Shown here piece after piece: positions 9,285 through 57,301 of a DNA stretch of 64,000 nucleotides (its first letter is position 1; the number at the start of each line of letters is the position of its first letter). The position numbers and the translations under genes are program-made. Source of the DNA: an uncultured Alphaproteobacteria bacterium (GTDB taxonomy: Bacteria; Pseudomonadota; Alphaproteobacteria; CAAGCB01; CAG-977); the NCBI GenBank assembly GCA_944393745.1, contig CALYBD010000001.1:72628-136627 (forward strand), written 5' to 3'. The notes beneath the pieces are model-generated. The model was not told the DNA's origin and ran no database searches. It saw nothing but the letters and a program-made list of their open reading frames with translations.

Positions 9285-10694
9285 ATCAATCGTTCCCAAC
9301 GATCCGTGACGCTGTTTGGCAATAATCAGTTCGGCTTTGTTTTCCAAATCCACCAAAGATTTTTCCCATTTGTGCATACGGTCGTTAAATTTATCATCTG
9401 ATTCGTTTTGACGCTGCACGGGAATGCTGTTTTTAATATAATAATGTTCACGGAAAACAAACATAACGATATCAGCGTCCTGTTCAATAGACCCGGAATC
9501 ACGCAGATCAGACAGCAGCGGCCTTTTATCTTCACGTTGTTCAACCGCACGGTTTAACTGAGATAACACCAAAACCGGAACGTTTAAATCTTTGGCCATA
9601 ATTTTCAACAGGCGCGTTGTTTCCGTTAAACCGCGCACCATATCGCCTTTATAAGCCGAATTTGACATATCAATCAGCTGCAAATAATCGATAACGACCA
9701 ACCCCAGCCCTTTTGCCGATTCCCGTTTTAAACGCCGGCAACGGTTGTGAATGGCAGCGACATTTAATCCCGGAGTATCGTCAACATATAACGGAACCTT
9801 TTCCAATTCTGCGGCAAATCCGACCACGCGACGGAATTCGTCGGCCGTAATTTTGCCGTTGCGCAGCTTATCCGAAGCAATCTGCGTTTCCATGGCCAAA
9901 ATACGTCCGGCCAGCTGTGCCGACGACATTTCCAAAGAAAAAAAAGCAACACTTTTACGTTCTTTGCCGTTTTTGATGTCTTCCAAAAAACTGCGTGCGG
10001 TATTAAAGGCCAAACAAGTCGCAAAAGCCGTTTTTCCCATACCGGGACGGCCGGCCAAAATCAACAGATCCGATTTATGCAACCCGCCCATTTTACTGTC
10101 CAAATCCCGAAAACCCGTCGGTACCCCCGAAAGCCCGTTCGGATTTTTTGTTGCTTCGGAAACTTCCTGAATAACCTCGGTCAACGTATCGACAAACGGC
10201 TTCGGCCCGCCGTCAATTTGTCCTTCCGTTCCCAATTCATATAATTTTTTTTCCGCCTGCGCCATCTGCAAAGAAGCATCGCTGTCCAAATTAACGGCAT
10301 AAGCGTTATTAACGATATCCGTTCCCAATCCGATCAACTGACGGCGCAGATACCGATCAAAAATCAGTTTAGCGTAATCTTCGGCATTAATAATGGTGAC
10401 GGCATTGGCGGTTAAATCCATCAAATATTTAACGCCGCCGACTTCGTTCAACGTGCCGTCATTTTCCAAATATCCCTTCAGTGTTACCGGATCGGCGGAA
10501 TGACCGCGGGAATGCAGCGTCAGAACAGCCTGATAAATTGCGGCATGAACCGGGCTGGCAAAATGAAAAGGTTTCAGAAACTCAGCCACTTTTTCCAAAG
10601 CATGGTTATTCGCCAAAATAGCGCCCAGCAAAGCCTGCTCCGCTTCGATATTCTGCGGCGGCATGCGAATTAATTCAGATTCCGTATTTTCCAT
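9222..10694 (-). CDS. dnaB: Replicative DNA helicase DnaB
   Basis: N-terminal PPQNIEAEQALLG, Walker A GRPGMGKTAFA, Walker B VVIDYLQL, C-terminal ...KQRHG motif. Confidence 0.92.
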   Translation of the reverse strand: MENTESELIRMPPQNIEAEQALLGAILANNHALEKVAEFLKPFHFASPVHAAIYQAVLTLHSRGHSADPVTLKGYLENDGTLNEVGGVKYLMDLTANAVTIINAEDYAKLIFDRYLRRQLIGLGTDIVNNAYAVNLDSDASLQMAQAEKKLYELGTEGQIDGGPKPFVDTLTEVIQEVSEATKNPNGLSGVPTGFRDLDSKMGGLHKSDLLILAGRPGMGKTAFATCLAFNTARSFLEDIKNGKERKSVAFFSLEMSSAQLAGRILAMETQIASDKLRNGKITADEFRRVVGFAAELEKVPLYVDDTPGLNVAAIHNRCRRLKRESAKGLGLVVIDYLQLIDMSNSAYKGDMVRGLTETTRLLKIMAKDLNVPVLVLSQLNRAVEQREDKRPLLSDLRDSGSIEQDADIVMFVFREHYYIKNSIPVQRQNESDDKFNDRMHKWEKSLVDLENKAELIIAKQRHGSLGTIDLSFERQFTRFGDWINPDFNA

Positions 10695-27187: not shown

Positions 27188-27374
27188 ATACCATGAAAAT
27201 CCGTGTCGCTTAACTGCGGCTGTGTGTCTTTCTTGTAAACAAAAGACTTTTTTGTGCGACAGAAACGTCGTTTCAATCTTGCAAAACTTCCGAAACCATT
27301 GACGAATAAAAGCAACACAAAACATTGTTCTGCCCTGCGTTATATACGAGGAAGTTTTTTAAAACGACAACCGT

Positions 27375-28535
27375 CTAATCATCGTAGGCGCCGCGCCGTC
27401 CGATCTGAACATCGCGGTTAACATTGACGCATTCAATCAAACCGAACGAAAACATCAATGTCAGCATAACCGTCCCGCCGTAGGAAATCATCGGCAAAGG
27501 CACGCCGACAACAGGCAGCAGTCCCATCACCATGGCAATATTGATAAAAACATACAAAAACAAATTCGTCGTTAACCCCAAAGCCAGCAAACGACCAAAA
27601 AAGCTGGTGGATCTGAAGGCAATCACATAACCGTAAAAAATCAATGCCAAATACAACAATAACAAAGATACCGATCCGATCAGGCCGAATTCTTCGGCTA
27701 AAACGGTAAAAATAAAATCCGTATGCTTTTCCGGCAAAAAATTCAGCCGGCTTTGTGTCCCCTGCAAAAATCCTTTCCCGAAAACACCGCCCGATCCCAA
27801 CGTAATCTTGGATTGCAGAATATGATATCCTTTACCCAACGGATCACGTTCCGGATCCAAAAAGGTAAAAACGCGTTCTTTTTGATAATCATGCAGGAAT
27901 CGCCAGGCAATCGGAATGGAAATCAATCCGGCCACCCCCAGTGCGGCAAATTTCCACATCTGAACACCGACCAAAAAGAACAATGTCAAAGACCCCGCCC
28001 CCATTAAAACCGCCGTTCCCAAATCAGGTTGCTTTAAAACCAACGCGACCGGAATTAAAACCATAAATGACGGAATGACAATGGCCGACATACTCATCAT
28101 TTCCTGCAAAGAACTGCCGTGAAAATACCGGGAAAGCGCCAAAATCAACGCTATTTTCATCAATTCGGACGGCTGTATCCGAATAAATCCTAAATTCAGC
28201 CAACGCTGCGCCCCCATGGCATCATGACCGAAATATTCCACAAAAAACAATAAAGCCACCGCACCGATATAAAAAATATACGCATATTTCAGCCAGAAGC
28301 GCAGATCAATCATGGCAACAACGAACAATACCGCGCAGCCCATCCAGAAACGATAAAATTGCCGGCTGGCCCAGGGTTCCCAATTTCCGTTCGCCGCAGC
28401 ATACAAAACGACAAAACCGGAAGCCGCAACTAAAAAAATCAAAAAAATGTAACACCAGCTGAGGTTTAAAAAACGTTCCTTCAGCGTCAGATTCGGATCA
28501 CGCAGTCTGAAAGGCGAAAAATCAGATGTTATCAT
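27375..28535 (-). CDS. mrdB: Rod shape-determining protein RodA (SEDS family)
   Basis: FtsW/RodA/SpoVE family polytopic membrane protein. Final gene of the mreBCD-mrdA operon. Confidence 0.88.
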   Translation of the reverse strand: MITSDFSPFRLRDPNLTLKERFLNLSWCYIFLIFLVAASGFVVLYAAANGNWEPWASRQFYRFWMGCAVLFVVAMIDLRFWLKYAYIFYIGAVALLFFVEYFGHDAMGAQRWLNLGFIRIQPSELMKIALILALSRYFHGSSLQEMMSMSAIVIPSFMVLIPVALVLKQPDLGTAVLMGAGSLTLFFLVGVQMWKFAALGVAGLISIPIAWRFLHDYQKERVFTFLDPERDPLGKGYHILQSKITLGSGGVFGKGFLQGTQSRLNFLPEKHTDFIFTVLAEEFGLIGSVSLLLLYLALIFYGYVIAFRSTSFFGRLLALGLTTNLFLYVFINIAMVMGLLPVVGVPLPMISYGGTVMLTLMFSFGLIECVNVNRDVQIGRRGAYDD

Positions 28536-37826: not shown

Positions 37827-38138
37827 TTGAACAGATTACCGTTATTGCGTATCCTGTCGGCTGTGTCTTAACAGGCACGGAGACTTAGAAAATCTCTTTA
37901 ATAAGGTCGGCGCAGATATGCGTCGTTAGCTGTTTTGCCTATGGTGAAACAGACAAAATATCCCCGATTTTTTCAAAGGTCGGGGAGCTTTTGGCGTATG
38001 TTCAGAACACACCCCGTCATTATCTCTGAAAAAACGGAGGTGTTTAAAGGTCAAAAGGATCATTTACCTTATTATGGTTTTTCTACTCCCCGACCGCCTG
38101 ATTAAGGCGGTTTTCGTTTACTTTAAGGAGATTAGAGC

Positions 38139-40775
38139 ATGAAACAATCGAAAACAACGATGAAAGAATTGACGCGCCGCTATCGCGCGGTGCTGATCAA
38201 ATGCGCTTTGCTGAATTTGGCGGCATTTTCCGTCGCAATGCCGGCAAAGGCGGATGTTGTAATCGGCGATGGAGATACAGCAATTTATACACGAATTTCC
38301 AAAAAAGGAGAAGGAGAGGAAAAAAGAAATCGTTACACGATTAAAGTCAACAACAACGACGAAGAATTTTTCAACTTTTCTCCCGACGCTTTGAAAATGA
38401 CGGGCGGGAATCTGATTGTTGAATCCAAAGTCGGCGATTGGCTGGATTGGCAGGGAACGGGCGGTATCGACATTTCCGGCGGAACGGTTTCGGCAAAAAA
38501 TGAAGAAACTTTGAGCTTTTACCGCGGTCCGGTGTCAATTTCGGGAAACGCCGTTATCAATACGGCGATGATGTCCGATGTAAACACAACAATTTCCGGC
38601 GGAAGAATCACACTTGCCGATACAAACGACGCCAACAGAGAACTGTACTTCGGCAAAGGATTGGGGATTGACGCGGCGGATGAACAAACTTCCGGAACTT
38701 TATCAATTTCCGGCGGCGACATCACTTTGGGGAAAAACCGTTATATTGTGTTGTTGAGAGAATGGGGCGATGATGACACGGAAAACCTTCCCGCCGCCTA
38801 TCACGGAGACATTAAAATCAGCGGTGGAAATATTACGCTGAATAAAAACGCTCAAATTATCAGAACCGATAACGACAACAACGAAGTCGGCAAAACTCTG
38901 GTTTTCAACTATCTGAAAGATTCCCGTCCGAATGAACTGTCCAAAACAACGGGTGAAATCGACATCTCCGGCGGAACGGTTACTCTCAACGACACGGCGT
39001 CGATTGTAAATCATTCGTCCGACGGCACAATTCGCATTTCCGACGCGGCAATCATCAATGTCAACGGAAACAACAGATTTGAAAACGCAAAGGGCATCGC
39101 CGCGGCGGACTTTACGGGCGGCGAAATCAACTTGAACGGCGCGCTGACGGCGAACATTGCCGCAACGGGAGGAACGATTGTTTTCGGCAAAGAAACGGCT
39201 CGTCTGAACGGCGATTTGTCGGGGTCGAATGTTGATTTGATATTCAAAGACAACTATGCGCTGTCCAACTTGAACAACAAAGCGACATTGAAAAACATCA
39301 CCATCGCCGACGGCAAAACGCTGGACATCGGAACGGGTACGCTGACGGCTGATCTGATTTCCGGCGGAACGATTTCGGCGATTTTGACCGACGCGGCGAA
39401 AACGTCCGCGATCGTCAATGCGACGGCGCAAAACGCAACGCTGAAACTGGACATGAGCAACGCTTCGCGCGACGCGGTGACGGAATACAAAATCACAAAC
39501 GGCGTGGGTTTCACGTTCGGCGACTATGCGACCAACCGCTACGCCGTATCCGATTCCGAATTCGACATCGCCGCCGCCAAAACGCTTGAAAAGCTGAGCA
39601 ACTGGAAAGGCGGCAATTTGTGGATTTTGCGTTTGGCGACCGCTTCCGAAGCCGCAATTGAAGATTTGGAAAAATCCGGCGTCGTATTGCCCGAAAGCGA
39701 AAAACAGGCGTCGAAAATTCTGGATCTGGCGAACGAAGTGCTAAACAAGCTGCCCGAACATACGCAAAAGATCATTGAAAAAGTCAACGACTTGCTGGAC
39801 AAGGCGGCGGGCAAAACCGCCGAAGTGCGCCAAATCCTAAAAGAAGTCGCCCCCGACACCGCTCAATCCGGCTCGAAAATGGCGACAAGCACGGCGAAAT
39901 CCGTCATCAACGTCGTCGGATCGCGTTTCGGCGGCGGCATGAAATCGGGCGGATCGTTCGGCGGGCGCGGTCGTTCGGGCGGTGATTACGCCGCCGGCAG
40001 ATCGTCCGTTTGGGCGCAGGGCATGATGAACTACGCCAAACTGGATAAAGAGGACGGCTTCAACGCGCATTCAAACGGATTCGCGGCGGGCGCCGAAGTC
40101 AACTTCACCGACAGCTTCAAAGCCGGTATCGGTTACGCCTACACGTCCGGCGACATTTCGACCGACCGCGCGCAAACCGACGTCGATACGCACACGGGAT
40201 TTGTGTACGGCGAATACAAACCGCACAAAGCCTATGTCAACGGTGTTGTCAGCTACGGTCGTTCCAAATACGACGAAAAAACGCGCACGGTCGGTTTGAC
40301 CAGCGACTATAACGCCGACACGATCGCCGCGCAAATCGCCGCCGGATACGATTTAGGATTGCTGACCCCCGAAGCCGCCGTCCGTTTCACCAACGTCCGG
40401 TTGAAAGAATACACCGACGCGGCGGGCGCGACGTTGCGCGACAAAACGCAGAACACGTGGACGGGCGTCGCGGGGATCAAAGCGGCAAAAGGATATCACT
40501 TGACCGCGAATCCGAAAATCAACTTCACGCCCGAATTAAAGGTGGCGGCGACGTATGATTTCGCCCGCGACGACGAAAACCGCACGGTCGTCCTGCCCGA
40601 TCATTCCAGCTATGTCGTGTCCGGCGATCCGATGAAACGGTTCGGCGTCGAAACCGGCGCGGGATTGACGGTCACGTTCGGCAATTCCTCCGAACTTTCC
40701 GTCAGCTACGAAGGCAAATTCAAGGATCATTACAAAGATCACACCGGTATGGTCAATTTGAAAGTCAACTTTTAA
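38139..40775 (+). CDS. Type Va autotransporter (beta-helical passenger with ISGGxITL repeats + C-terminal beta-barrel)
   Basis: Extended signal peptide MKQSKTTMKELTRRYRAVLIKCALLNLAAFSVAMPAKA. Repetitive passenger. C-terminal barrel ends NLKVNF with an aromatic terminal residue. Confidence 0.8.
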   Translation: MKQSKTTMKELTRRYRAVLIKCALLNLAAFSVAMPAKADVVIGDGDTAIYTRISKKGEGEEKRNRYTIKVNNNDEEFFNFSPDALKMTGGNLIVESKVGDWLDWQGTGGIDISGGTVSAKNEETLSFYRGPVSISGNAVINTAMMSDVNTTISGGRITLADTNDANRELYFGKGLGIDAADEQTSGTLSISGGDITLGKNRYIVLLREWGDDDTENLPAAYHGDIKISGGNITLNKNAQIIRTDNDNNEVGKTLVFNYLKDSRPNELSKTTGEIDISGGTVTLNDTASIVNHSSDGTIRISDAAIINVNGNNRFENAKGIAAADFTGGEINLNGALTANIAATGGTIVFGKETARLNGDLSGSNVDLIFKDNYALSNLNNKATLKNITIADGKTLDIGTGTLTADLISGGTISAILTDAAKTSAIVNATAQNATLKLDMSNASRDAVTEYKITNGVGFTFGDYATNRYAVSDSEFDIAAAKTLEKLSNWKGGNLWILRLATASEAAIEDLEKSGVVLPESEKQASKILDLANEVLNKLPEHTQKIIEKVNDLLDKAAGKTAEVRQILKEVAPDTAQSGSKMATSTAKSVINVVGSRFGGGMKSGGSFGGRGRSGGDYAAGRSSVWAQGMMNYAKLDKEDGFNAHSNGFAAGAEVNFTDSFKAGIGYAYTSGDISTDRAQTDVDTHTGFVYGEYKPHKAYVNGVVSYGRSKYDEKTRTVGLTSDYNADTIAAQIAAGYDLGLLTPEAAVRFTNVRLKEYTDAAGATLRDKTQNTWTGVAGIKAAKGYHLTANPKINFTPELKVAATYDFARDDENRTVVLPDHSSYVVSGDPMKRFGVETGAGLTVTFGNSSELSVSYEGKFKDHYKDHTGMVNLKVNF

Positions 40776-48702: not shown

Positions 48703-50022
48703 ATGAATATCAATAAATCTTTCATCAACAGCCTGTCTTTTACGAGCAAGGAAACGACCTATTTCGACGATAGCGTCAAGGGCTTCGGCGTCCGCGTCTG
48801 CAAATCGTCCGCGAGTTATATTCTGATGTATCGCAACGCCTACGGGCGGCAAAAGAAGCTGACCATCTGTAAAACAACGCTGATGATGCCGACCGAAGCG
48901 CGGGACGAAGCCAAGCGGCTTTTGGCTTTGGTCGTTCAGGGCAAAGACCCGGAACAGGAAAAACTGGAACGCCGCAAAGAATTGACGATCGGCGAACTGG
49001 CGGACGAGTTCCTTAACTTCAAACTGCCGTTTCTGAAACAAGCGACACGGAACTCGTATCAATCGGCGGTCAAAAAGCACATCAAGCCGGATTTGGGCAA
49101 AATACCGATCAAAGCGTTCAGACATTCGGACGCTCAACGGTATTATAACGACTTGCTGATGGGAAAAGGGATAACGACCTTTCACTCCGAAAAAGAAGAC
49201 TTCCGGCATATCGGATCGGCGAACACGGTTCTCGTCCCTTTGCGGTGTATGTTCGATTACGCCCGTTCTTTGGGACTGGTGAACTTCAATCCGGTCAAGG
49301 AGTTGCAGACTTTCCCCAATCCGTGCAGTTACGAGTTCTTTGACGAAGCGGAAATCCGAAAGCTCGGCAGAATCATAAACACCTGCAATTACGTCAATCC
49401 GTATTATCTGAATGTTATCCGTTTGCTTGTAATGACGGGATGCCGGAAAAAGGAAATCGAAAATCTAAAATGGTCGTATATCGACTTCAAGCATCAGTTG
49501 TTCCTCTTTCCCGACACGAAGACGGGCGCGCAGGACAGACCGTTCGGCATAGCGGTCAAGGAGTTGCTTCTTCAAATGAAAGACGCCGTTCAGCCGCAGA
49601 GTAATGACAAGTTTGTGTTTCCGAAATCGGGGAAAGGAACGGACGTTGCCAAGAACTTCTTTCAGGTTCACGTCAAATCAAAGCCGGAGTTTGCGAAGAA
49701 GAAAGTTCACAGCTTGCGGCACACGTTTGCGTCGATGGCGGCGGCGATCGGCTTTCCGGAAGCGGTCGTGGCGAAGCTATTGGGACACAAGCAACAGAGT
49801 ATGACCGCGCGATACACGCACTTGACGGAAGACGCCGTTCAACAGGCGGCGGATAAGATAACGCGAAGGATTGCCGCGTTGCTGAATATCCCCGAACAAG
49901 GCGCCAAGCCGGAGGACGTGAAGATGTTTCCGCGGGGGATTCACCTTTACAAGCTTCATCTTGTGAAGTCGGAGAAATATCCGCGTCCGATACTCGCCCG
50001 AAAACAGAGGGCGGCGGGGTGA
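48703..50022 (+). CDS. int: Tyrosine-type site-specific integrase (phage integrase family)
   Basis: N-terminal arm-binding/SAM-like region, then a catalytic domain with R...HxLRH...Y (HSLRHTFAS ... RYTHL). Confidence 0.85.
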   Translation: MNINKSFINSLSFTSKETTYFDDSVKGFGVRVCKSSASYILMYRNAYGRQKKLTICKTTLMMPTEARDEAKRLLALVVQGKDPEQEKLERRKELTIGELADEFLNFKLPFLKQATRNSYQSAVKKHIKPDLGKIPIKAFRHSDAQRYYNDLLMGKGITTFHSEKEDFRHIGSANTVLVPLRCMFDYARSLGLVNFNPVKELQTFPNPCSYEFFDEAEIRKLGRIINTCNYVNPYYLNVIRLLVMTGCRKKEIENLKWSYIDFKHQLFLFPDTKTGAQDRPFGIAVKELLLQMKDAVQPQSNDKFVFPKSGKGTDVAKNFFQVHVKSKPEFAKKKVHSLRHTFASMAAAIGFPEAVVAKLLGHKQQSMTARYTHLTEDAVQQAADKITRRIAALLNIPEQGAKPEDVKMFPRGIHLYKLHLVKSEKYPRPILARKQRAAG

Positions 50023-50191
50023 TCCGAGAGGGGCGAAGTCCCTCTGGCAAGGGCGCAAAAGTTTTGCGCTAACTTGCTATGGTAGATTTTTTCTGCCGCG
50101 GCAAAGAACCGGAAACAAGGGAATACCGATGTAAAAAGATGCTACGAATGAATACGGACGAATACGAATGTAAACGACCGAATACGAACGT

Positions 50192-50878
50192 TTACATTAA
50201 GTTTTTCGCGTATGCGATAAACGGATAATCGTCGGCTCCTTCTTTGATTTTACCGAGATTTTCTTTTGTTCCGATTATCTTAGCCATCACGGCCAAACAG
50301 GCGGCATCAAGCAAATCATCAAATTTGAAAAAAGCGTCCTTTTCCTGTTTTGAGGCTTCTCGCAAAAGTTTTTCAATTCCGGCAACGCCAAGATATTCTT
50401 TCAAAATCAAAAGTCGTTCGGCTTGTCCCGCACCTGTTTTCTTGGGAAAAATCTTTTTGCTGTTGTTTAGCAGTTCAAAGCAAAACTCCGGATGAGATTC
50501 CCAAAAATGAAAAACGTCAGGATTGTTTCCTGCCGCGAACTCTTTTACTTCATAAATTTTGTGCATAATTGCTTTCGTTTGTTCTGACATCGTAATCGTA
50601 TCTTTGATACGGTCATATTCCTCTTCCGTAGGAGGTAAGTTTTCGGGAAGAGAAAAAACAGAATTTTTATTCCCTTTCATAGCATTACGCAACGCTCCGT
50701 CAGGTCTTTTTTTTAAGCCGATCGGCATATCAATCAGAATAATGTCTTTCGGGTTGCTTCTGTTAAAATCAAAGCCTGTTAATTTTTCTTTGACCGTAAC
50801 GTTTGCCACGCCATATTCATTTATAAAAACGGCGATCCATCCGGCAGGACACCCGTCAATCCCCACATATTCAGTCAT
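50192..50878 (-). CDS. DUF429-family protein (predicted RNase H-like fold)
   Basis: N-terminal GIDGCPAGW hallmark. 8-bp overlap with the upstream HD gene. Confidence 0.55.
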   Translation of the reverse strand: MTEYVGIDGCPAGWIAVFINEYGVANVTVKEKLTGFDFNRSNPKDIILIDMPIGLKKRPDGALRNAMKGNKNSVFSLPENLPPTEEEYDRIKDTITMSEQTKAIMHKIYEVKEFAAGNNPDVFHFWESHPEFCFELLNNSKKIFPKKTGAGQAERLLILKEYLGVAGIEKLLREASKQEKDAFFKFDDLLDAACLAVMAKIIGTKENLGKIKEGADDYPFIAYAKNLM

Positions 50879-51425
50879 TTATCAATTCCTTGTATAAAGC
50901 TAAAAACTCATTTTGCACATCTTCGAAAGGACGTATTTGCGATGACAACATAATATGGAGCATTTGGCCGTTATCCGGAATAGGATTTGCTTTCACATCA
51001 TTCTTAAAATAATTTTCAAATTCCCAATACAGCATTGTATCGTCAATCGTGTGCCATAATGCCTGTTCATCGAAAAACGGTTCTATGCAGTGCGAAGCAA
51101 GAGCCGTTAAAATAGCTTTTTCCAATCTGTCTTCGTTTTCCATATATGCTTGTCCTTTAATGGGACGAGGAATATCGCACATATACGCTTCGGAAGCATC
51201 GTGAAGAAGACAACAAAGCTGAATCGTTTTATCGTATCCTCGTGCAGCGGCTTCTTTACAGCAATTTATGGAATGTTCTGCAACGGAATAAAAACGGTTG
51301 AAATGACCGTTTGCACGACATAATAACGACAATGCGTGCGCTATGTCCTCAATTTTGACGGTCGTCGGATCAGGGGTGAGGATATTAAACGATTCTCCGG
51401 TAAAAGTGGAGATAATATTTTTCAT
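50871..51425 (-). CDS. HD-domain phosphohydrolase, YfbR-like (5'-deoxynucleotidase-type)
   Basis: H..VAEHS ... LLHDASE ... D metal-binding motif order typical of YfbR-type HD hydrolases. Confidence 0.6.
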   Translation of the reverse strand: MKNIISTFTGESFNILTPDPTTVKIEDIAHALSLLCRANGHFNRFYSVAEHSINCCKEAAARGYDKTIQLCCLLHDASEAYMCDIPRPIKGQAYMENEDRLEKAILTALASHCIEPFFDEQALWHTIDDTMLYWEFENYFKNDVKANPIPDNGQMLHIMLSSQIRPFEDVQNEFLALYKELIND

Positions 51426-51479: not shown

Positions 51480-51716
51480 TTATTTTTTCTTTTTCAGTTC
51501 TTCAGCCACGGCTTTGTTGAAATCTTTTTGCAGCTGATCCATTTTCTTGCGCTTTTCGTTCATTTTCTTCGTATAATCATCAAGCTTCTTTTGTGAATTC
51601 TGCGCCTGTTTCATATAGTTGTCATAGGTTCGTTTTTCCGAATCATACTGACGCTGAACGCTGTCGATTTCACGCTGTAAAGAATCCATATTTTTCTTGA
51701 TTTGTTCACTTGTCAT
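51480..51716 (-). CDS. Small (79 aa) all-coiled-coil protein, unknown function
   Basis: aggagt RBS then ATG MTSEQIKK. Heptad-rich K/E/Q sequence. The longer track ORF (to 51875) runs into the structured repeat and is probably an artefact. Confidence 0.45.
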   Translation of the reverse strand: MTSEQIKKNMDSLQREIDSVQRQYDSEKRTYDNYMKQAQNSQKKLDDYTKKMNEKRKKMDQLQKDFNKAVAEELKKKK

Positions 51717-51794: not shown

Positions 51795-52145
51795 CGTATA
51801 TACAAAGCCCGCCTTAAAAGGCGGGCGGATGTTCAAACACCGTTTATCTATGGACGGCACAGCGGTTTCGCGCATAGCCTTATAACGCCGTCATTGTTAG
51901 AAAGAAAAGATGTATACTCTAATTTAGTAAACAGGCATTTAGCCTGTTTATGTCCGATAGAGAGTTGCAACTCTCTATCGGACGGCAGTTGAACGAACGG
52001 CGCCGACATAGAGATCCGCCCGTTCGGGACAGATTTGCGGCGTATAATTTGTTAGTCGCCATACACAATGCGACATAGATAAAAGGGTGTTTGAAGCCCT
52101 ATGCCTTTCAACAAAGCATATCTGATTTTTAACCAACTTTTTTCA
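51795..52145 (-). ncRNA. Copy A of a structured noncoding element (candidate leader/sRNA, minus sense) upstream of the coiled-coil gene
   Basis: Homologous to copy B, sharing blocks GGATGTTCA.A.ACCGT, GCCGACAT..CCGCC, AGTCGC..GCGAC and AAAAGGGT..CCCT. In minus sense it ends in a gcccgcc/ggcgggc hairpin plus T-run. Calling them repeats is firm; calling them RNA is inferred. Confidence 0.45.
51952..51983. repeat. Perfect 32-bp palindrome (16-bp arms, no spacer) inside copy A
   Basis: gtccgatagagagttg|caactctctatcggac. Absent from copy B. Confidence 0.9.
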
Positions 52146-52557: not shown

Positions 52558-53010
52558 TTACAAAAGATCAAACATTCCTGTCTGACGCAAAGCTTCGCCC
52601 AATACAACGGCCCCCGAAAGGGCAACATTAACGGATCGGGCTTCCGGACGCATCGGAATACGCAACCGCGCGTCCGCCGCCTGATGCACGAAATCCGGTA
52701 CTCCCGCGCTTTCGCGCCCCAACAGCAAAATATCATCGCGTCTAAAAGAAAATTTCTGATACGGCTCGGATCCCTTTGTCGTCAATAAAACGATCCGCCC
52801 CTGATGAGCGGCATAAAATTTTTCCCACGAATCATGGCGGGTATAATCGACAATATCCAGATAATCCATCCCTGCCCGACGCATTTTTTGATCGTTAAAA
52901 ATAAACCCGCACGGTTCGATAATATCCACGGGAATGTCAAAACACGCCGCCAAACGCATCAATGTACCCGTATTCTGCGGTATATCCGGTTCGTAAAGAG
53001 CTAAACGCAT
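52558..53010 (-). CDS. trmL: tRNA (cytidine/uridine-2'-O)-methyltransferase TrmL (SpoU family)
   Basis: MRLALYEPDIPQNTGTLMRLAACF N-terminus. About 150 aa SPOUT. Confidence 0.8.
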   Translation of the reverse strand: MRLALYEPDIPQNTGTLMRLAACFDIPVDIIEPCGFIFNDQKMRRAGMDYLDIVDYTRHDSWEKFYAAHQGRIVLLTTKGSEPYQKFSFRRDDILLLGRESAGVPDFVHQAADARLRIPMRPEARSVNVALSGAVVLGEALRQTGMFDLL

Positions 53011-53019: not shown

Positions 53020-54123
53020 CTAAACATTAAACAGGAAATGACAAATATCACCGTCCTGAACAACATATGTTTTGCCTTCGGAACGCAGTTTGCCCATTTC
53101 CCGGGCTTTGGCTTCACTTTTGCAGGCAATGAAATCATCATAAGAAATGACTTCGGCCCGAATAAATCCCTTTTCAAAATCGGAATGAATAACACCCGCC
53201 GCCTGCGGCGCCGTCATACCGTCCCGAATTGTCCAAGCCTTTGATTCTTTGGGGCCGACAGTAAAAAATGTTTTTAAATTCAATAGCTTATAGCCAGCCG
53301 CGATTACACGGTTCAATCCCGTTTCCGCCAACCCGAGCGTTTCCAAAAATTCTTTTTGTTCTTCGGCATTTTCCAACAAAGCCACTTCGGCTTCGATTGC
53401 GGCGGAAATTACAACGGCTTGATTACCCTGCTTTTCAGCCATTTCAAAAACACGTTTTGAAAATTCATTTCCCGTTGCCGCCGAAGTTTCGTCAACATTG
53501 CAGACATACAAAACGGGTTTAGACGTCAATAAGTACAGCTGTTTATAAAGCTTTTGTTGTTCTTCATCTTCAAAATGAACGGTACGCGCCGGTTTCCCCG
53601 CGCGCAAAGCGTCTAAAACGGGTTGCATGACGGCAACCATTTCCTTGCCTTCTTTTTCGCCCGCACGGGCTTTTTTTTCAAACGGCACGATCCGGCGTTC
53701 CAAACTGTCCAGATCCGACAGCATTAATTCCGTTTCGATCGTTTCCGCATCACGTACCGGATCAATCGACCCTTCGACATGCGTAATGTCGCTGTTTTCA
53801 AAACAACGCAAAACATGAACAATCGCATCAACTTCCCGGATCGAAGCCAAAAACTGATTGCCCAAACCTTCGCCTTTGGACGCGCCTTTGACCAATCCCG
53901 CGATATCGACAAACTCCAGCTGAGTGTAGATCGTCTGTTTGGAATTTGCCAAATCGGATAAAACCTTTAACCGCGGATCCGGTACGGCCACACGGCCGAC
54001 ATTCGGTTCAATTGTGCAAAACGGATAATTTGCCGCCTGTGCCGCCATCGTTGACGTCAGAGCGTTAAACAAAGTTGATTTACCGACATTGGGCAATCCG
54101 ACAATTCCGCAATTAAATCCCAT
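53020..54123 (-). CDS. ychF: Ribosome-binding ATPase YchF
   Basis: MGFNCGIVGLPNVGKSTLFNALT G1 motif. About 367 aa. Confidence 0.92.
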   Translation of the reverse strand: MGFNCGIVGLPNVGKSTLFNALTSTMAAQAANYPFCTIEPNVGRVAVPDPRLKVLSDLANSKQTIYTQLEFVDIAGLVKGASKGEGLGNQFLASIREVDAIVHVLRCFENSDITHVEGSIDPVRDAETIETELMLSDLDSLERRIVPFEKKARAGEKEGKEMVAVMQPVLDALRAGKPARTVHFEDEEQQKLYKQLYLLTSKPVLYVCNVDETSAATGNEFSKRVFEMAEKQGNQAVVISAAIEAEVALLENAEEQKEFLETLGLAETGLNRVIAAGYKLLNLKTFFTVGPKESKAWTIRDGMTAPQAAGVIHSDFEKGFIRAEVISYDDFIACKSEAKAREMGKLRSEGKTYVVQDGDICHFLFNV

Positions 54124-54126: not shown

Positions 54127-54717
54127 CTATTCCTTTTTGATTTTTTTTTGCTGATAAACCGCCAGTCTGGAAGTAAATTCCGGGACGCCGCCCGATAAAA
54201 CAAAGGGAAACGTTTCGGCGATATCTTCTGACAAAGTCTGAATTTTTTCTAAATCTTCCTTGGGAAAACCGGCAATAATCCAGTTAACGACCGGTTCTGC
54301 ATGCAAAGGATGTCCGATTCCGATTCTGATCCGTGTATATCCCGGCGTGCAGTATTCGTCTATGCTTTTTAACCCGTTATGACCGCCGGCACCGCCGCCG
54401 ACTTTTCCTTTTACTTTTCCGATCGGGCAGTCCATGTCATCATGCAAAACAATGACATTTTGTACCGGTATTTTATAAAAAGACATTGCCGCCGAAACGG
54501 CGCGCCCCGAATTATTCATATACGTTTGCGGTTTTAACAGCAGAATTTTTTGTCCGTCAATCAGGCCTTCGGCCGTTTCCGCGCTAAATCGTTTACGCCA
54601 GGACGAAAAATTATAGCGGCGGAACAGTTCGTCCGCCGCCATAAATCCGACATTATGCCGACTGTTTTTATATTCGGATCCCGGATTCCCAAGACCAACA
54701 ACCAAAAACATCGACAA
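54127..54717 (-). CDS. pth: Peptidyl-tRNA hydrolase
   Basis: VGLGNPGxxYxxxRHNVGF signature. Confidence 0.92.
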   Translation of the reverse strand: MSMFLVVGLGNPGSEYKNSRHNVGFMAADELFRRYNFSSWRKRFSAETAEGLIDGQKILLLKPQTYMNNSGRAVSAAMSFYKIPVQNVIVLHDDMDCPIGKVKGKVGGGAGGHNGLKSIDEYCTPGYTRIRIGIGHPLHAEPVVNWIIAGFPKEDLEKIQTLSEDIAETFPFVLSGGVPEFTSRLAVYQQKKIKKE

Positions 54718-54726: not shown

Positions 54727-55380
54727 TTATTCCTTTGCTGCCGTATCGGCTGCAGCAGGAGCCGCAGCTGCATCGGTTGTTTCGGCCGCCGTTGTTTCTT
54801 CAATGGTATCTTCCATCGAAGACGGCGCCGCAATCGCAGCAATGGTCGTATCCATGTCTTCGACGGGCTTGACGCCGGCCGGGAATTTCACATCAGACAT
54901 TTTAACGACATCGCCGATTTCCAAACCGGTCAAATCCACAAACAACGTTTCCGGAATATCCTTGGGTTTACAGGAAACTTCGATCGTACGATAAATCGCG
55001 TTTAACGTACCGCCCAGCTTCAGACCCGGGCAAGCCAGTTCGTTTTCGTACATGACAGGAACTTCGATTTCCAGTTCCGCATTTTCGGAAACGCGCAGAA
55101 AATCGATATGAATCGGACGATCCGTCAACGGATGCGTCTGAATGTCCTGACAGATGGCGTGATACTTGTTTTTGCCGACTTCGATTTCGAACTGGCGCGT
55201 CCAGAAACCTTTCTGGCGCATTTGCGCGTCCAAATCCAAGGCGGAAATAGAGAACATCACGGGTTCTTTCTTTTCACCGTAAATAACACCGGGAATTAAA
55301 CCTGCGCGACGTTCCGCGCGAGCCGCCCCCTTACCTGCCGTTTTGCGTTCATTAACGCGAATGGAAGTAGTTTTAGCCAT
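54727..55380 (-). CDS. rplY: 50S ribosomal protein L25 / general stress protein Ctc
   Basis: L25 N-domain (RxxxGKxxxRRxRRAGxIPGVIYG) with an acidic/Ala-rich C-terminal tail. Confidence 0.88.
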   Translation of the reverse strand: MAKTTSIRVNERKTAGKGAARAERRAGLIPGVIYGEKKEPVMFSISALDLDAQMRQKGFWTRQFEIEVGKNKYHAICQDIQTHPLTDRPIHIDFLRVSENAELEIEVPVMYENELACPGLKLGGTLNAIYRTIEVSCKPKDIPETLFVDLTGLEIGDVVKMSDVKFPAGVKPVEDMDTTIAAIAAPSSMEDTIEETTAAETTDAAAAPAAADTAAKE

Positions 55381-55503
55381 AATATATTTTATCCTTTTAA
55401 AATCAAAACGGTTCTGCCTCCAGGGGTGCCTGAACCGTTATTTTCCGCACCATGCGGAAAGCTTTCGTCTGTTTACACCGTTTTAAAGACAAAAGCAATC
55501 TTT

Positions 55504-56067
55504 TTAACGCTGTTTTTCCCGTACAGCCGTTACTTTATAATCGCCGCCGTATTTGTACAGCAAAATACAGCAGCGGTGCTGCCCGTCAATAATGACATTA
55601 TCTTTATTCAGAACAACAATGCACAAGGCCGGATTATATCCTTTTTCGTTCATTGATTTTTCTAAATTTTCAAAGCGTTCCGGCGTTCTGTCGGCATCAG
55701 CGGGCAGTACCCCCAAATCAATATGTTTTTGAACGTAATCGGCATAAATGCCTTTGTCCCTTGTCTGCAGATATTTAAACGGAGAACACTGCGTTAAAGG
55801 ATACAGCTTTCCGTTCCATTTTCTGCGAATATCTTTTAAAGGAATCTTAACGATTTCCGTTTCTTCTATTAACCCGATGGCATCCGCCGGCAGTCGGATT
55901 CCCTGATCTGCCAGTCGTTGTGACAGCCTTTGGAAATTTTGATATCGGTAAATTTCCCGTATCATGTAGCGATAATTCCAAAATACTATTTTTTTATTCA
56001 GGATTCGAAATGTTTTTCGGATTTTCGTTTTATGAAACGAAAAAATTTTTTGTAGAACTCTGTGCAT
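55504..56067 (-). CDS. ParB/Srx-fold (DGQHR-motif) nuclease-domain protein, inserted between prs and rplY
   Basis: C-terminal VIIDGQHRCCIL motif (a DGxHR core). aagga RBS lies 9 nt before the ATG. Located directly 3' of structured element copy B on the same strand. Confidence 0.45.
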   Translation of the reverse strand: MHRVLQKIFSFHKTKIRKTFRILNKKIVFWNYRYMIREIYRYQNFQRLSQRLADQGIRLPADAIGLIEETEIVKIPLKDIRRKWNGKLYPLTQCSPFKYLQTRDKGIYADYVQKHIDLGVLPADADRTPERFENLEKSMNEKGYNPALCIVVLNKDNVIIDGQHRCCILLYKYGGDYKVTAVREKQR

Positions 56068-56094
56068 TTTCTGAACAATCCTTTTTCCGGTTAA

Positions 56095-56330
56095 ACAAAA
56101 CCTACCTTTGCAGGTAGGCGGATGTTCAGAAACCGTATAAACCTAACACGGCTCGACCTATTGGGCGAATAGCCGTATTCAGCCGACATCCGCCTGCATA
56201 GGACAGAAATCGGCATAAATATTTAAAGTCGCTTTATGCTGTGCGACTAGGTTTAAAAGGGTTTCTGACGCCCTGAATCCGATAAAACCGGATTCATATG
56301 TATACTATCGAAAAATAAAAAAAGAGCAAT
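56095..56330 (-). ncRNA. Copy B of the structured noncoding element (candidate leader/sRNA, minus sense) upstream of the ParB-like gene
   Basis: About 70% conserved blocks with copy A. Internal helices ggcggatgt/acatccgcc and tcagaaacc/ggtttctga. In minus sense it ends in a cctacc/ggtagg hairpin plus TTTTGTTT about 20 nt before the gene RBS. Confidence 0.45.
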
Positions 56331-56333
56331 CAA

Positions 56334-56359
56334 AAAGCCCTCTTAAGAGGGCTTTTAAA
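56334..56359 (-). terminator. Intrinsic terminator of prs
   Basis: aaaagccctcttaagagggctttt. A T-run follows on the minus strand. Confidence 0.7.
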
Positions 56360-56368
56360 AAGTTTCAC

Positions 56369-57301
56369 TTAATAAAACAAACTGGTGACCGAACGTTCTT
56401 CACTGATACGTAAAATCGATTCGCCGACCAGTTCGGCAACGGAAACAACCCGGATATTTCTTGCTTCTTTGACCGCCTGCGTCGGTTCAATCGTATCCGT
56501 AATTACCAAAGATTCCAACGGCGAATCCGTTACGCGCTTTACCGCTTCGCCGGACAATACCCCGTGCGTGACATAAGCATGAACCGAATTTGCCCCGGCA
56601 TTCTTTAACGCAACGGCCGCATTGCACAGTGTTCCGGCCGAATCGACGATATCGTCAACCAAAATGCAATCCTGCCCTTCGACTTCGCCGATAATGTTCA
56701 TCACTTCGGACACACCGGCGCGTTCACGGCGCTTATCAATAATTGCCAAATCGGCATGAAGACGCTTGGCAATCCCGCGCGCACGCACGACACCGCCAAC
56801 ATCAGGCGAAACAATCATCGGCGTTTTATCCCTGAAATGATACATAATATCCTTAACCATCACCGGCGCAGCCATCAGATTGTCGACGGGAATATTAAAA
56901 AATCCCTGAATTTGTCCGGCGTGCAGATCCATTGTCACGACACGGCTGGCTCCGGCGGAAGTAATCAGATCCGCAACCAGTTTGGCCGAAATCGGCGTTC
57001 GCGGCGCAGAACGTCTGTCCTGACGGGCATAACCGAAATAAGGAACGACTGCCGTAATACGACGCGCCGAAGAACGTTTAAACGTATCCAGCATAATCAG
57101 CAATTCCATTAAATGATCGTTGACCGGAGAACTGGTCGGCTGAACAATAAACACGTCCTGTCCGCGAACGGTTTCCTGCACTTCGACAAAGATTTCATTG
57201 TCGGCAAAGCGGCGGACCGAACATTTTGACAACGACATATCCATATAAGCCGCCACCGCCTGCGCGAACGGGATATTGCTGTTTCCTGAAAAAACTTTCA
57301 T
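56369..57301 (-). CDS. prs: Ribose-phosphate pyrophosphokinase
   Basis: [10 protein letters not shown]-terminus and PRPP-binding loop DDIVDSAGT. Confidence 0.93.

What the first reader, a model, noticed from the sequence alone, without database searches (positions are those of the whole stretch)
55504..56330. Insertion in the conserved prs-rplY-pth-ychF cluster: structured element copy B plus a ParB/DGQHR-fold nuclease-domain gene
prs is normally immediately followed by rplY(ctc)-pth-ychF. Here an 830-bp module sits between the prs terminator and rplY. It consists of copy B of the structured element, whose terminator-like hairpin (cctacc/ggtagg + TTTTGTTT) ends about 20 nt before an AAGGA RBS, and a 187-aa protein with a VIIDGQHRCCIL motif (ParB/Srx/DndB-type DGxHR nuclease fold). 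This is the same RNA-then-gene layout as copy A, with a different cargo gene. That argues the RNA is a portable regulatory or guide-like unit that travels with small effector genes. The module is possibly defence-related, since DGQHR domains occur in DndB-type restriction-associated proteins.
Basis: partly seen in the sequence, partly recalled or inferred. Interest (0 to 1): 0.7.

Follow-up and report, generated by a model that had tools for sequence, protein, structure and literature searches.

The report
Structured leader RNA controlling surface genes
The 830-bp module is real, but it is not a defence cassette: it is one copy of a large, apparently undescribed family of about 190-nt pseudoknotted leader RNAs ending in a terminator, which in uncultured gut and rumen Alphaproteobacteria sit in front of cell-surface genes, here a small ParB/sulfiredoxin-fold protein whose domain is otherwise fused to cell-wall polysaccharide enzymes.

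Summary
On the minus strand, between prs and rplY, lie a promoter-proximal hairpin, a 186-nt structured RNA (56090-56275) ending in an intrinsic terminator, an RBS, and a 187-aa ORF (55504-56067) carrying DGQHR.

The RNA is the main result. A covariance model finds at least 86 copies in gut and rumen alphaproteobacterial MAGs, several per genome and three in this window. No Rfam family reaches its threshold.

Covariation supports five nested helices, a hypervariable long-range helix, two pseudoknots and a helix that crosses the long-range one. It also supports a three-way competition: sequestor hairpin, pseudoknot 2 (antiterminator), terminator.

Downstream genes are mostly pilins, lipoproteins, outer-membrane proteins, autotransporters and glycosyltransferases. 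The start codon follows the terminator by 16-31 nt in most copies.

The best reading is a riboswitch-like transcription-attenuation leader for a cell-surface regulon. Its signal is unknown. The guide-RNA and defence readings are not supported.

The parts
56333..56356 (-). prs intrinsic terminator (AAAAGCCCTC TTAA GAGGGCTTTTT). It marks the upstream boundary of the module.
   Evidence: Read from the sequence. prs stops at 56369.
56302..56307 (-). Probable -10 hexamer (TAGTAT) of the leader's own promoter. The -35 of this copy is weak.
   Evidence: Family-wide, 46 of 79 upstream regions have a match of at least 9/12 to TTGACA-N16-18-TATAAT, against 18 of 79 shuffles. The -10 ends 24-29 nt before AGGG in 33 of the 46. 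This copy scores only 8/12 and the strict scan does not flag it, so the assignment is inferred.
56276..56296 (-). P0: 5'-terminal hairpin (GAATCCG GTTTTAT CGGATTC) immediately before the conserved core.
   Evidence: A hairpin of -4 kcal/mol or better in the 24 nt before AGGG occurs in 77 of 79 copies, against 6 of 79 shuffles. Its sequence varies. It is present in the MFE fold.
56120..56275 (-). Conserved core of leader RNA copy B.
- H1: 56258-56274.
- PK1: loop 56262-56268 pairs with 56126-56132.
- P2 (hypervariable): 56248-56256 pairs with 56136-56145.
- P3: 56228-56247.
- P4: 56182-56214.
- PK2: 5' strand 56187-56194 pairs with 56117-56124.
- P6: 56154-56175.
- P7: 56149-56151 pairs with 56133-56135.
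   Evidence: Covariance model R1 scores 190 bits. Fold z-score is -7.3.
56093..56119 (-). Intrinsic terminator (GCCTACC TGCAAA GGTAGGT + TTTGTTT). Its first 3 nt (4 in some copies) are shared with the 3' strand of PK2.
   Evidence: Flagged by the scan. Present in all 58 aligned copies, with compensatory changes. Stability is -12.8 kcal/mol, or -6.5 when PK2 takes GCCU.
56079..56083 (-). Ribosome-binding site AAGGA, 11 nt before the ATG at 56067.
   Evidence: Read from the sequence. The same AAAGGAT motif follows the terminator in many family members.
55504..56067 (-). 187-aa protein. It has an N-terminal helical/beta extension and a ParB/Srx-fold domain at about residues 66-187, with DGQHR at residues 161-165.
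51797..52101 (-). Leader copy A, interrupted by an insertion of about 125 nt at the P4/PK2 boundary. It is followed by a 78-aa coiled-coil ORF (51480-51716).
   Evidence: Compensatory PK1 variant TTCAAACA/TGTTTGAA.
37879..38122 (+). Third, divergent leader copy, 17 nt upstream of an 878-aa autotransporter gene (38139-40775).
   Evidence: R1 scores 27.6 bits, E 8e-8. Sequence and ORF. Its PK1 (UAGAAAA/UUUUCUA) and PK2 (UCGGGGAG/CUCCCCGA) are fully compensated relative to copy B.

Best explanation
The module is a self-contained expression unit: own promoter, 5' hairpin P0, a roughly 190-nt structured leader RNA, an intrinsic terminator, an RBS, and a gene.

The leader belongs to a large lineage-specific family that works as a conditional transcription terminator, that is, a riboswitch-like attenuator.

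Proposed mechanism:
- In the default path the extended P4 hairpin sequesters the strand GGCGGAUG. The terminator then forms and transcription stops about 45 nt before the start codon. This releases an RNA of about 205 nt (P0 to the end of the U-tract).
- In the alternative fold the invariant 3' 'hub' (GGUUUCUGAACAUCCGCC) is captured by two loops. PK1 pairs it with the loop of the 5' hairpin H1. PK2 pairs it with GGCGGAUG.
- PK2 takes the first 3-4 nt of the terminator stem. This weakens the terminator, so RNA polymerase reads into the gene.

What shifts the balance is not known. I consider a small-molecule or second-messenger ligand somewhat more likely than a protein.

The regulated gene here encodes a small ParB/Srx-fold nucleotide-binding protein. 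Its family is otherwise fused to RgpF-type and other glycosyltransferases of surface-polysaccharide synthesis. The gene therefore fits the regulon of this leader, which is the cell surface: pilins, lipoproteins, outer-membrane proteins, autotransporters and glycosyltransferases.

Shown: the anatomy, the covariation, the alternative pairings, the gene associations and the protein fold. Inferred: regulated read-through, its direction (ON when folded), the signal, and the enzyme's activity.
For: Family size:
- R1 finds 86 copies at E < 1e-12 in the fetched loci. There are several per MAG (up to 8 in one assembly, by my tally of the CM hits against the locus list) and three in this window.

Structure, main family (86 sequences):
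- 95.7% of cells are paired, and 34-35 pairs have changes on both sides.
- The covariation score is 0.33-0.41, against 0.12-0.17 in shuffles (0 of 500 reach it) and at most 0.06 when partners are slid.
- P7 is 100% paired and shows compensatory changes.

Structure, subfamily 2 (12 sequences retrieved with a pattern that does not touch the pseudoknot strands):
- PK1 is 100% paired, with 3 of 6 pairs compensated (for example CG 7, GC 4, AU 1).
- PK2 is 99% paired.

Switch:
- Columns 74 and 76 of A6 covary with both partners, the sequestor strand and the PK2 3' strand.
- Column 161 is shared between PK2 and the terminator.
- In the main family column 116 of A3 covaries with both column 86 and column 196.
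- Energies are balanced: P4ext -18.1, PK2 -18.3, terminator -12.8, falling to -6.5 kcal/mol when PK2 forms.

Cis layout:
- In 75 of 88 copies with a called downstream ORF, the start codon lies 16-31 nt after the end of the element. That leaves no room for a separate promoter.
- A promoter-like site and the P0 hairpin lie upstream of the RNA.

Regulon:
- Searches show Autotransporter, OMP_b-brl, Opacity, TRL, BspA-LRR, Bundlin/prepilins, PEGA lipoproteins, GT2 (3 copies), GT29 and GT92.

Linkage to this gene:
- All eight orthologues checked (50-86% identity), and the window's own protein on other contigs, carry the leader immediately upstream, in five different genomic contexts.

Protein:
-.
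Against: - No ligand, transcript ends or read-through have been measured. Everything is computational and comes from metagenome assemblies.
- In the main family the overlap between PK2 and the terminator is only 3-4 nt. Position 110 of A3 is an A-C mismatch in about half the copies, so PK2 and a shortened terminator might coexist.
- Main-family members were retrieved with a pattern inside the hub. PK1 and PK2 are therefore nearly invariant there by construction. Their covariation rests on subfamily 2 and a handful of divergent copies.
- The regulon is broad. It also includes two HTH regulators, a DNA methyltransferase and a PLD-like protein. That is unusual for a metabolite riboswitch.
- P2 and P7 cross, so the exact tertiary topology is uncertain.
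Confidence: 0.6

Rival explanations
1. Protein-dependent antitermination. The leader is the recognition RNA of a dedicated RNA-binding antiterminator or a specialised NusG paralogue, as with LoaP leaders, Bacteroides UpxY 5'-UTRs or BglG/SacY RAT sites. That protein stabilises the PK fold and lets polymerase pass the leader terminator and later ones.
For: The anatomy is the same as in the best explanation. From established knowledge, the regulon (surface polysaccharide, pili, adhesins) is the classical territory of RfaH, UpxY and LoaP-type antitermination. The high sequence conservation of many unpaired positions would suit a protein-binding surface as well as a ligand pocket.
Against: No candidate factor was found next to the elements, and copies are scattered among unrelated neighbours. 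A 190-nt RNA with two pseudoknots is much larger than known protein-antiterminator targets. This explanation cannot be separated from the riboswitch reading by sequence alone.
Confidence: 0.2
2. A family of independent trans-acting small RNAs. Each copy is a stand-alone sRNA gene with its own promoter and terminator, and expression of the downstream gene by read-through is incidental.
For: The element has its own promoter, a 5' hairpin and a strong intrinsic terminator. A terminated RNA of about 205 nt would accumulate. The 3' half shows weak similarity to the 88-nt sRNA-Xcc1 (27.8-33 bits).
Against: The downstream start codon sits at a fixed short distance (16-31 nt) in most copies, in the same orientation, with no room for another promoter. 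The gene classes are strongly non-random. Covariation supports alternative pairings that involve the terminator. There are many near-identical copies per genome and no free, variable seed region.
Confidence: 0.1
3. A DNA-level phase-variation switch (inverton). The long-range inverted repeat (H1 loop/P2 against P2'/hub) flanks an invertible promoter segment upstream of surface-antigen genes. The hypervariable core would keep recombination within each locus.
For: The downstream genes are typical inverton targets in gut bacteria. A roughly 20-bp imperfect inverted repeat with a conserved outer part and a variable core flanks about 110 bp.
Against: The internal segment has the same orientation in 87 of 87 scorable copies, with none inverted. 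Local hairpins P3, P4, P7, the terminator, and PK2, which pairs an internal strand with a strand outside the repeat, all covary. An inverted repeat does not explain this. The promoter-like site and P0 lie outside, upstream of the repeat. No recombinase is linked.
Confidence: 0.03
4. One reading: a portable guide-like RNA coupled to small effector genes, with the ParB/DGQHR protein acting as a defence-related nuclease.
For: RNA-then-gene layout with different cargo genes. A DGQHR motif and a ParB/Srx fold. In one relative a restriction-modification island lies next to the gene.
Against: No significant hit to DndB, the DGQHR-domain family, GmrSD or any PADLOC defence family; the only PADLOC hit is insignificant (12.8 bits, E 0.0099). 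The domain is 47% identical to the C-terminal domain of an RgpF protein, and 9 of 10 larger homologues scanned are polysaccharide glycosyltransferases. The RNA has no free variable segment. Cargo genes are surface proteins, not effectors. The RNA is absent from viral contigs.
Confidence: 0.03

Closest known systems
Transcriptional ON-riboswitches for second messengers, e.g. c-di-GMP-II (RF01786) upstream of pilA1 in Clostridioides difficile (comparison from established knowledge)
   Same: It is a 5' leader with a pseudoknotted sensor domain followed by an intrinsic terminator whose 5' arm is shared with a sensor helix. There are several copies per genome. The regulon is pili, adhesins and surface proteins.
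   Different: There is no sequence or structure match to any Rfam riboswitch, even at E <= 10. It is twice as large, with two pseudoknots plus a crossing helix. The ligand is unknown. The regulon also includes abundant lipoproteins and glycosyltransferases.
Leader RNAs of specialised NusG paralogues (LoaP leaders, Bacteroides UpxY 5'-UTRs, JUMPStart/ops of RfaH) (comparison from established knowledge)
   Same: These are conserved leader elements upstream of surface-polysaccharide, pilus or adhesin operons that control read-through of terminators.
   Different: Those elements are short (a hairpin or a 12-nt DNA motif) and each depends on a linked or identifiable NusG paralogue. No such factor was identified here, and the element is a large autonomous fold.
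sRNA-Xcc1 (Rfam RF02221; 88-nt integron-encoded sRNA of Xanthomonas campestris, PMC2996969)
   Same: It is the only Rfam model that repeatedly aligns. It matches the 3' half of the leader: PK2 as a closing stem, two inner hairpins, and a GUUUCUGAAC-like linker.
   Different: Scores of 27.8-33 bits are far below the gathering score of 53. sRNA-Xcc1 lacks the 5' half (H1, P2, P3, P4). The taxon and the genomic setting are different.
ParB/Srx (ParB-CTPase fold) enzymes without a DNA-binding domain: sulfiredoxin, serine kinases SerK and SbnI, PadC (survey: PMC12704722)
   Different: No Pfam ParB_N match. It has a distinct N-terminal extension. Its domain family is fused to RgpF, WbsX, GT2 and GT9 glycosyltransferases and methyltransferases. 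The terms 'glycosyltransferase', 'polysaccharide' and 'rhamn' do not occur in the main text of the 2025 survey.

Membership tests
ParB/Srx (ParB-CTPase) fold superfamily | Three-dimensional fold similar to ParB N-domain or sulfiredoxin | tested here: met
ParB/Srx (ParB-CTPase) fold superfamily | Conserved G-x-x-R-type nucleotide-phosphate-binding motif | tested here: met
   D161, G162, H164 and R165 are conserved in at least 90% of the 22 aligned sequences. The motif is kept in the RgpF-fused homologue. That it is equivalent to GERR/GCHR is inferred from the fold alignment.
ParB/Srx (ParB-CTPase) fold superfamily | Sequence-profile match to Pfam ParB_N (PF02195) or related models | tested here: not met
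   No Pfam or NCBIfam family at E <= 1. No PDB sequence hit, even with the family profile.
Canonical ParB / KorB / Noc DNA clamps | HTH DNA-binding domain and C-terminal dimerisation domain | tested here: not met
   The protein is 187 aa and ends with the Srx-like domain. The secondary structure shows no HTH module.
DndB / DGQHR-domain and GmrSD-type defence proteins | Profile match to DndB, the DGQHR domain or DUF262, or to any PADLOC defence model | tested here: not met
   Pfam none, NCBIfam none. PADLOC gives only an insignificant 12.8-bit hit to PD-Lambda-5_A in the N-terminal region.
DndB / DGQHR-domain and GmrSD-type defence proteins | Neighbourhood of dnd/dpt or other defence genes | tested here: not met
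   Neighbours are housekeeping genes in 7 of the 8 orthologue loci examined (5 distinct contexts). One locus has an R-M island inserted next to the gene.
Riboswitch / transcription-attenuation leader (as a mechanism class) | Conserved structured domain supported by covariation | tested here: met
   95-99% paired, 0 of 500 shuffles reach the covariation score, and slid controls are about 6-fold or more lower.
Riboswitch / transcription-attenuation leader (as a mechanism class) | Intrinsic terminator between the domain and the RBS of a same-strand gene | tested here: met
   A terminator is present in every aligned copy. The start codon lies 16-31 nt after the element end in 75 of 88 copies with a called ORF.
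Riboswitch / transcription-attenuation leader (as a mechanism class) | Mutually exclusive pairings that link the sensor domain to the terminator | tested here: met
   A6 columns 74 and 76 covary with both the sequestor and the PK2 partner, and column 161 is shared by PK2 and the terminator. The overlap with the terminator is only 3-4 nt, so the strength of the coupling is inferred.
Riboswitch / transcription-attenuation leader (as a mechanism class) | Direct binding of a ligand (or factor) that changes termination | not testable with these tools
   This needs in-line probing, ITC or single-round in vitro transcription.
Known Rfam families (all 4227, including c-di-GMP-I/II, other riboswitches and alphaproteobacterial sRNAs) | Score at or above the family's gathering threshold | tested here: not met
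   No match in the whole window at gathering thresholds. At E <= 10 the element itself is matched only by sRNA-Xcc1 (27.8 and 33 bits against 53) and by Arrc14 over the terminator of copy A (24.7 bits against 99); other weak hits lie outside the elements.
Type III toxin-antitoxin (ToxIN-like) RNA-terminator-gene loci | Tandem direct repeats of the antitoxin RNA upstream of the terminator | tested here: not met
   No tandem repeats in 55400-56400. The RNA is a single complex fold.
Invertible promoter (inverton) | Both orientations of the segment between the inverted repeats occur | tested here: not met
   87 native and 0 inverted among scorable assembled copies. Read-level data were not available.

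The most novel reading that the evidence does not exclude
The leader is a new riboswitch class that senses a small molecule or second messenger; a cyclic dinucleotide is a guess based on the pilin/adhesin regulon. It would act as the master ON-switch for the cell-surface proteome and glycome (pilins, lipoproteins, outer-membrane proteins, autotransporters, glycosyltransferases) of an uncultured, host-associated clade of Alphaproteobacteria. It would use a double-pseudoknot 'hub capture' architecture unlike any known class. In addition, the ParB/Srx-fold domain would be a previously unrecognised nucleotide-dependent enzyme module of surface-polysaccharide synthesis.
Probability: 0.35. Interest if true: 0.85.

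Novelty: new variant of a known kind. Interest (0 to 1): 0.62.

Why it matters
If the reading is right, one RNA family gates much of what these gut and rumen Alphaproteobacteria display to the host: pili, lipoproteins, porins, adhesins and surface glycans. These organisms are uncultured and common in human, ruminant and poultry gut metagenomes.

The family offers three things:
- an orphan riboswitch or attenuator candidate with clear alternative pairings, ready for biochemical ligand or factor hunting;
- an annotation handle, because a covariance model marks the surface regulon in MAGs where most of these genes are hypothetical;
- a new, Pfam-invisible branch of the ParB/Srx fold tied to RgpF-type glycosyltransferases.

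It also removes a false lead. A DGQHR motif next to a structured RNA is not, here, a defence system.

Tried and rejected
- Known RNA families. Rfam at gathering thresholds over the whole window found nothing. At E <= 10 over all three copies, and over relatives, only sub-threshold hits appeared. ARAGORN found no tRNA or tmRNA. I had considered a permuted tmRNA, 6S RNA or an integration-target RNA because an integrase lies near copy A.
- Protein sequence profiles. Pfam, NCBIfam and PDB searches with the single sequence and with the family profile found nothing. Only structure prediction plus fold search revealed the fold.
- The afdb50 fold library was unavailable.
- Defence. PADLOC gave no significant hit for the ORF (only an insignificant 12.8-bit hit) and coiled-coil noise for the copy-A ORF.
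- Phage association. The hub pattern hits 6 viral contigs, and none is a real copy by the covariance model.
- Inverton hypothesis. Rejected on orientation (87:0) and on RNA-level covariation.
- Type III TA layout. No tandem repeats.
- Complementarity between the hypervariable P2 strands and the downstream mRNA. I inspected copy B and L001 by eye. One coincidental match in copy B was not repeated in L001, so I dropped the idea.
- A possible fourth copy at 27235-27398 (11.5 bits). On reading it is an ordinary convergent intergenic region.
- Literature searches for a described motif with this regulon found nothing relevant. The sRNA-Xcc1 paper describes an 88-nt Xanthomonas-specific sRNA.
- About half of the 117 genome-scan hits are chance 17-mer matches in unrelated phyla. 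I filtered them out with the covariance model.
Full report
**1. What is at the locus**

All relevant genes lie on the minus strand.
- prs: 56369-57301.
- A 187-aa ORF: 55504-56067.
- rplY: 54727-55380.
- pth: 54127-54717.
- ychF: 53020-54123.
- A SpoU-type methyltransferase: 52558-53010.

The following features lie between the prs terminator (56333-56356) and the ORF, in order.
- A weak promoter-like -10 (TAGTAT, 56302-56307).
- A 5' hairpin, P0 (56276-56296).
- A conserved structured core (56120-56275).
- An intrinsic terminator (56093-56119), which the scan tool flags.
- An AAGGA ribosome-binding site (56079-56083).
- The ATG at 56067.

The 215-nt RNA folds to -88.2 kcal/mol, with z = -7.3 against dinucleotide shuffles.

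**2. The protein**

Sequence-profile libraries give nothing.
- Pfam and NCBIfam show no family at E <= 1.
- PDB sequence searches find nothing, with the single sequence or with the family profile.
- PADLOC shows no significant hit to any defence family; the only hit is an insignificant 12.8 bits.

A word-indexed search finds only 21 relatives. Most are about 187-189 aa, a few are 151-214 aa, and they share 39-95% identity. They come from gut metagenomes, and one record is labelled 'Alphaproteobacteria bacterium'. In the alignment, LQT-D, GY and R183 are invariant, and D-G-x-H-R is conserved in at least 90% of sequences.

AlphaFold2 with this alignment gives a confident model, pLDDT 87.6 and pTM 0.78.
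- Foldseek agrees: 5k5d prob 1.0, then sulfiredoxins.

The 'ParB/DGxHR fold' is therefore supported by structure but not by profile.

An exhaustive profile search of 1.84 billion representative proteins finds 527 relatives. In many of them the same domain (query residues of about 68-185) lies at the C-terminus of 400-1500-aa proteins.

I scanned ten of these larger proteins against Pfam.
- Eight carry RgpF (rhamnan synthesis protein F).
- Some of those eight also carry WbsX or GT2 domains.
- One carries GT9 plus a methyltransferase.
- One has no Pfam family.

Residues 66-183 of the window protein are 47% identical to residues 976-1089 of a 1125-aa RgpF protein, including DGQHRCC. The most distant stand-alone relative (39% identity) lies among GT2/Glyphos_transf and cytidylyltransferase genes and has no leader RNA.

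The domain is thus an accessory module of surface-polysaccharide synthesis. By analogy with Srx, SerK and SbnI, which use this fold to bind ATP (PMC12704722), a nucleotide-dependent (phospho)transfer role is the most reasonable inference. A defence nuclease is not supported.

**3. The RNA is a large family**

The sequence upstream of the orthologue at 53% protein identity is more conserved than the protein itself. It shows compensatory changes in several stems.

I scanned one genome per species with an 18-nt pattern taken from the conserved 3' 'hub' of the RNA (17 specified bases plus one N). About half are chance hits in unrelated phyla.

A covariance model (R1) built from 58 copies finds the following.
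- 86 copies at E < 1e-12 in the fetched loci.
- These copies are in gut, rumen and caecum MAGs. Nearly all are labelled Alphaproteobacteria, Rhodospirillaceae, 'Azospirillum sp.' or Candidatus Scatocola.
- Three bins are labelled otherwise, as Eubacteriales, Bacteroidaceae and Lachnospiraceae. They carry the same pilin genes and are probably mislabelled.
- Single assemblies hold up to 8 copies. These are lower bounds, from my tally of the CM hits against the locus list.
- The window holds three copies: B (190 bits), A (split by an insertion), and a divergent one at 37879-38122 (+) upstream of an autotransporter.
- None of the six viral-contig pattern hits is a real copy.
- No Rfam family reaches threshold. 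Only sRNA-Xcc1 aligns repeatedly to the 3' half, at 27.8-33 bits against a gathering score of 53.

**4. Architecture**

Upstream of the core:
- 46 of 79 distinct copies have a match of at least 9/12 to a -35/-10 promoter, against 18 of 79 shuffles. The typical form is CTTTACA-N17-TATAAT, and the -10 ends 24-29 nt before the core in 33 of those 46.
- 77 of 79 have a hairpin of variable sequence (P0) in the 24 nt immediately before the core, against 6 of 79 shuffles.

The core contains these elements.
- H1: AGGG/CCCU.
- P2: a hypervariable long-range helix.
- P3, P4 and P6: local hairpins.
- P7: CCG/CGG, which flanks the 3' strand of P2 and therefore crosses P2.
- PK1: the H1 loop UCAGAAA pairs with UUUCUGA in the hub.
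- PK2: GGCGGAUG, in or next to P4, pairs with CAUCCGCC in the hub.
- The terminator.

On the 86-sequence alignment:
- 95.7% of cells are paired.
- 34-35 of 41-45 pairs have changes on both sides.
- The covariation score is 0.33-0.41, against 0.12-0.17 in shuffles (0 of 500 reach it) and at most 0.06 when partners are slid.

The main family was retrieved through the hub, so PK1 and PK2 are almost invariant there. I therefore fetched a second subfamily from metagenomes, using a pattern in P6 that leaves both pseudoknots free. It lies upstream of pilin genes.

In 12 distinct members of this subfamily:
- PK1 is 100% paired, with three of six pairs compensated: CG 7 / GC 4 / AU 1; GC 9 / AU 3; UA 7 / AU 2 / GC 2 / CG 1.
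- PK2 is 99% paired, with two pairs compensated.

Copy A (UUCAAACA/UGUUUGAA), the third window copy (PK1 UAGAAAA/UUUUCUA; PK2 UCGGGGAG/CUCCCCGA) and L102:384 add further compensated variants.

**5. Evidence for a switch**

In subfamily 2 the 5' strand of PK2 is also the 3' strand of a long P4 hairpin.
- Alignment columns 74 and 76 covary with both partners.
- Column 161 is shared by PK2 and the terminator.

In the main family:
- The same nucleotide (A3 column 116) changes G to U together with both column 86 (its P4 partner) and column 196 (its PK2 partner).
- An extension of P4 over CGGAUG is 87% paired.

For copy B the competing elements are energetically balanced.
- Extended P4: -18.1 kcal/mol.
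- PK2: -18.3 kcal/mol.
- Terminator: -12.8 kcal/mol, falling to -6.5 when PK2 occupies GCCU.

This is the classical arrangement of sequestor, antiterminator and terminator.

**6. What the leader precedes**

I searched downstream of 95 element copies and called a same-strand ORF with an RBS for 88 of them.
- In 75 of these 88 the start codon lies 16-31 nt after the end of the element. No separate promoter fits in that space.
- The products are overwhelmingly envelope or secreted proteins. I estimate about 20 prepilin-type proteins (GRSMIEMLGVLAII...) and many lipobox lipoproteins, by eye from the listed sequences.
- Other products include outer-membrane beta-barrel and Opacity porins, autotransporters, BspA-LRR and Chlamydia-PMP-like adhesins, PEGA and TRL proteins.
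- There are also glycosyltransferases: GT2 (3 copies), GT29 sialyltransferase, GT92.
- A few are not surface proteins: two HTH regulators, an EcoRI-type methylase and a PLD-like protein.

The ParB/Srx-fold gene, being linked to surface-glycan enzymes, fits this regulon.

**7. History of the module**

All eight orthologues examined (50-86% identity), and the window's own protein on other contigs, have the leader ending about 20-25 nt before the start codon. An exception is the L128 copy, which carries an insertion.

The contexts differ.
- prs | module | rplY: the window and P0002.
- parB | module | rplY: P0010.
- module | rplY at a contig start: P0014.
- parB | module | R-M island: P0011.
- PNP | module | PFOR: P0004.
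- GGDEF-EAL | module: P0006.
- Between peptidase genes and rlmH: P0005.

The RNA and gene therefore move and persist as one unit. The position upstream of rplY is old and is not a recent insertion.

**8. Interpretation**

The best-supported explanation is a cis-acting, riboswitch-like transcription attenuator for a cell-surface regulon (confidence 0.6). The signal is unidentified.

Rivals:
- A protein-dependent (NusG-paralogue-like or RAT-like) antitermination target cannot be excluded by sequence (0.2).
- A stand-alone sRNA (0.1).
- An inverton (0.03; 87 native and 0 inverted orientations).

These last three fit the data poorly.

I rate novelty as a new variant of a known kind. The mechanism class (terminator-controlling leader) and the protein fold are both known. 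This RNA family, its double-pseudoknot hub-capture design, its surface regulon and the glycosyltransferase-linked ParB/Srx branch appear undescribed. They are absent from Rfam 15 and Pfam, and literature searches found no description.

**9. Caveats**

- All evidence is computational and comes from metagenome-assembled sequences.
- Retrieval of the main family was biased by the search pattern.
- P2 and P7 cross, so the tertiary topology is not settled.
- The overlap between PK2 and the terminator is short.
- The direction of regulation and the nature of the trigger are inferred.

Noticed in passing
window 51855-52015 (-), inside leader copy A; also L020:508-640, L022:762-853, L090:7010-7077: An insertion of about 125 nt interrupts copy A at the GGAT|GTCGGC site, with a possible 9-bp duplication ATG(T/A)CGGCG. 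It contains a perfect 32-nt palindromic hairpin (CCGTCCGATAGAGAGTTGCAACTCTCTATCGGAC...). The same sequence, 91-96% identical, sits at the same site in three other leader copies of MAG UMGS1296, each at a contig end. It looks like a small mobile element that targets the conserved leader, or a gene-converted expansion domain.
   Followed up: partly
window 37879-38122 (+) and 38139-40775 (+): A third, divergent leader copy lies directly upstream of an 878-aa autotransporter.
   Followed up: yes
window 55381-55503 (-); L001:6568-6669: The ORF187-rplY spacer holds a conserved motif AAACGGTGTAAACAGAC. It is followed by a hairpin whose stem covaries between relatives (AACGGTTC/GAACCGTT against GTTCGAC/GTCGAAC) around a conserved loop ACCCCUGGAGG, just before the rplY RBS. 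This may be an L25 autoregulatory leader or a terminator. No Rfam hit.
   Followed up: no
window 48703-51425: A tyrosine-recombinase (phage-type integrase) gene lies at 48703-50022 (+). Two minus-strand genes follow (a 228-aa protein and a 184-aa HD-like protein), next to copy A. In a close relative (L157/L158) this position after the SpoU gene instead holds an OMP/Opacity porin gene. That suggests a small integrated island here. No tRNA or tmRNA target was found in the window.
   Followed up: partly
L016:2008-2459 (-); L116:1024-1744 (-): Other leader copies carry a roughly 260-nt insertion in the 3' strand region of P2 (L016). Others occur as two elements in tandem before one PEGA lipoprotein gene (L116).
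   Followed up: no
Leader family, helix P2 (A5 columns 27-45 / 238-256); e.g. L042, L058, L061, L079 of one MAG: Paralogous copies within one genome are nearly identical except for 4-6 central base pairs of P2. These are completely different yet always complementary (AACC/GGTT, CACA/TGTG, CAAG/CTTG, ACTC/GAGT). They diverge faster than the unpaired P4 loop. Why this 'barcode' diversifies is unexplained.
   Followed up: partly
L128:2519-4582 and 7615-9962: In one relative the leader-ORF187 module lies next to a PAS-GGDEF-EAL protein and two EAL-like genes. This is a single, anecdotal link to c-di-GMP signalling.
   Followed up: no
Loci L013, L035, L071, L084, L096, L111, L124 (CAVGVF01), L015, L095, L097, L120 (CAVKTH01), L018 (CAVBCV01): Assemblies labelled Eubacteriales, Bacteroidaceae or Lachnospiraceae carry many leader copies and the same pilin genes as the alphaproteobacterial MAGs. 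These bins are probably mislabelled in the public records.
   Followed up: no
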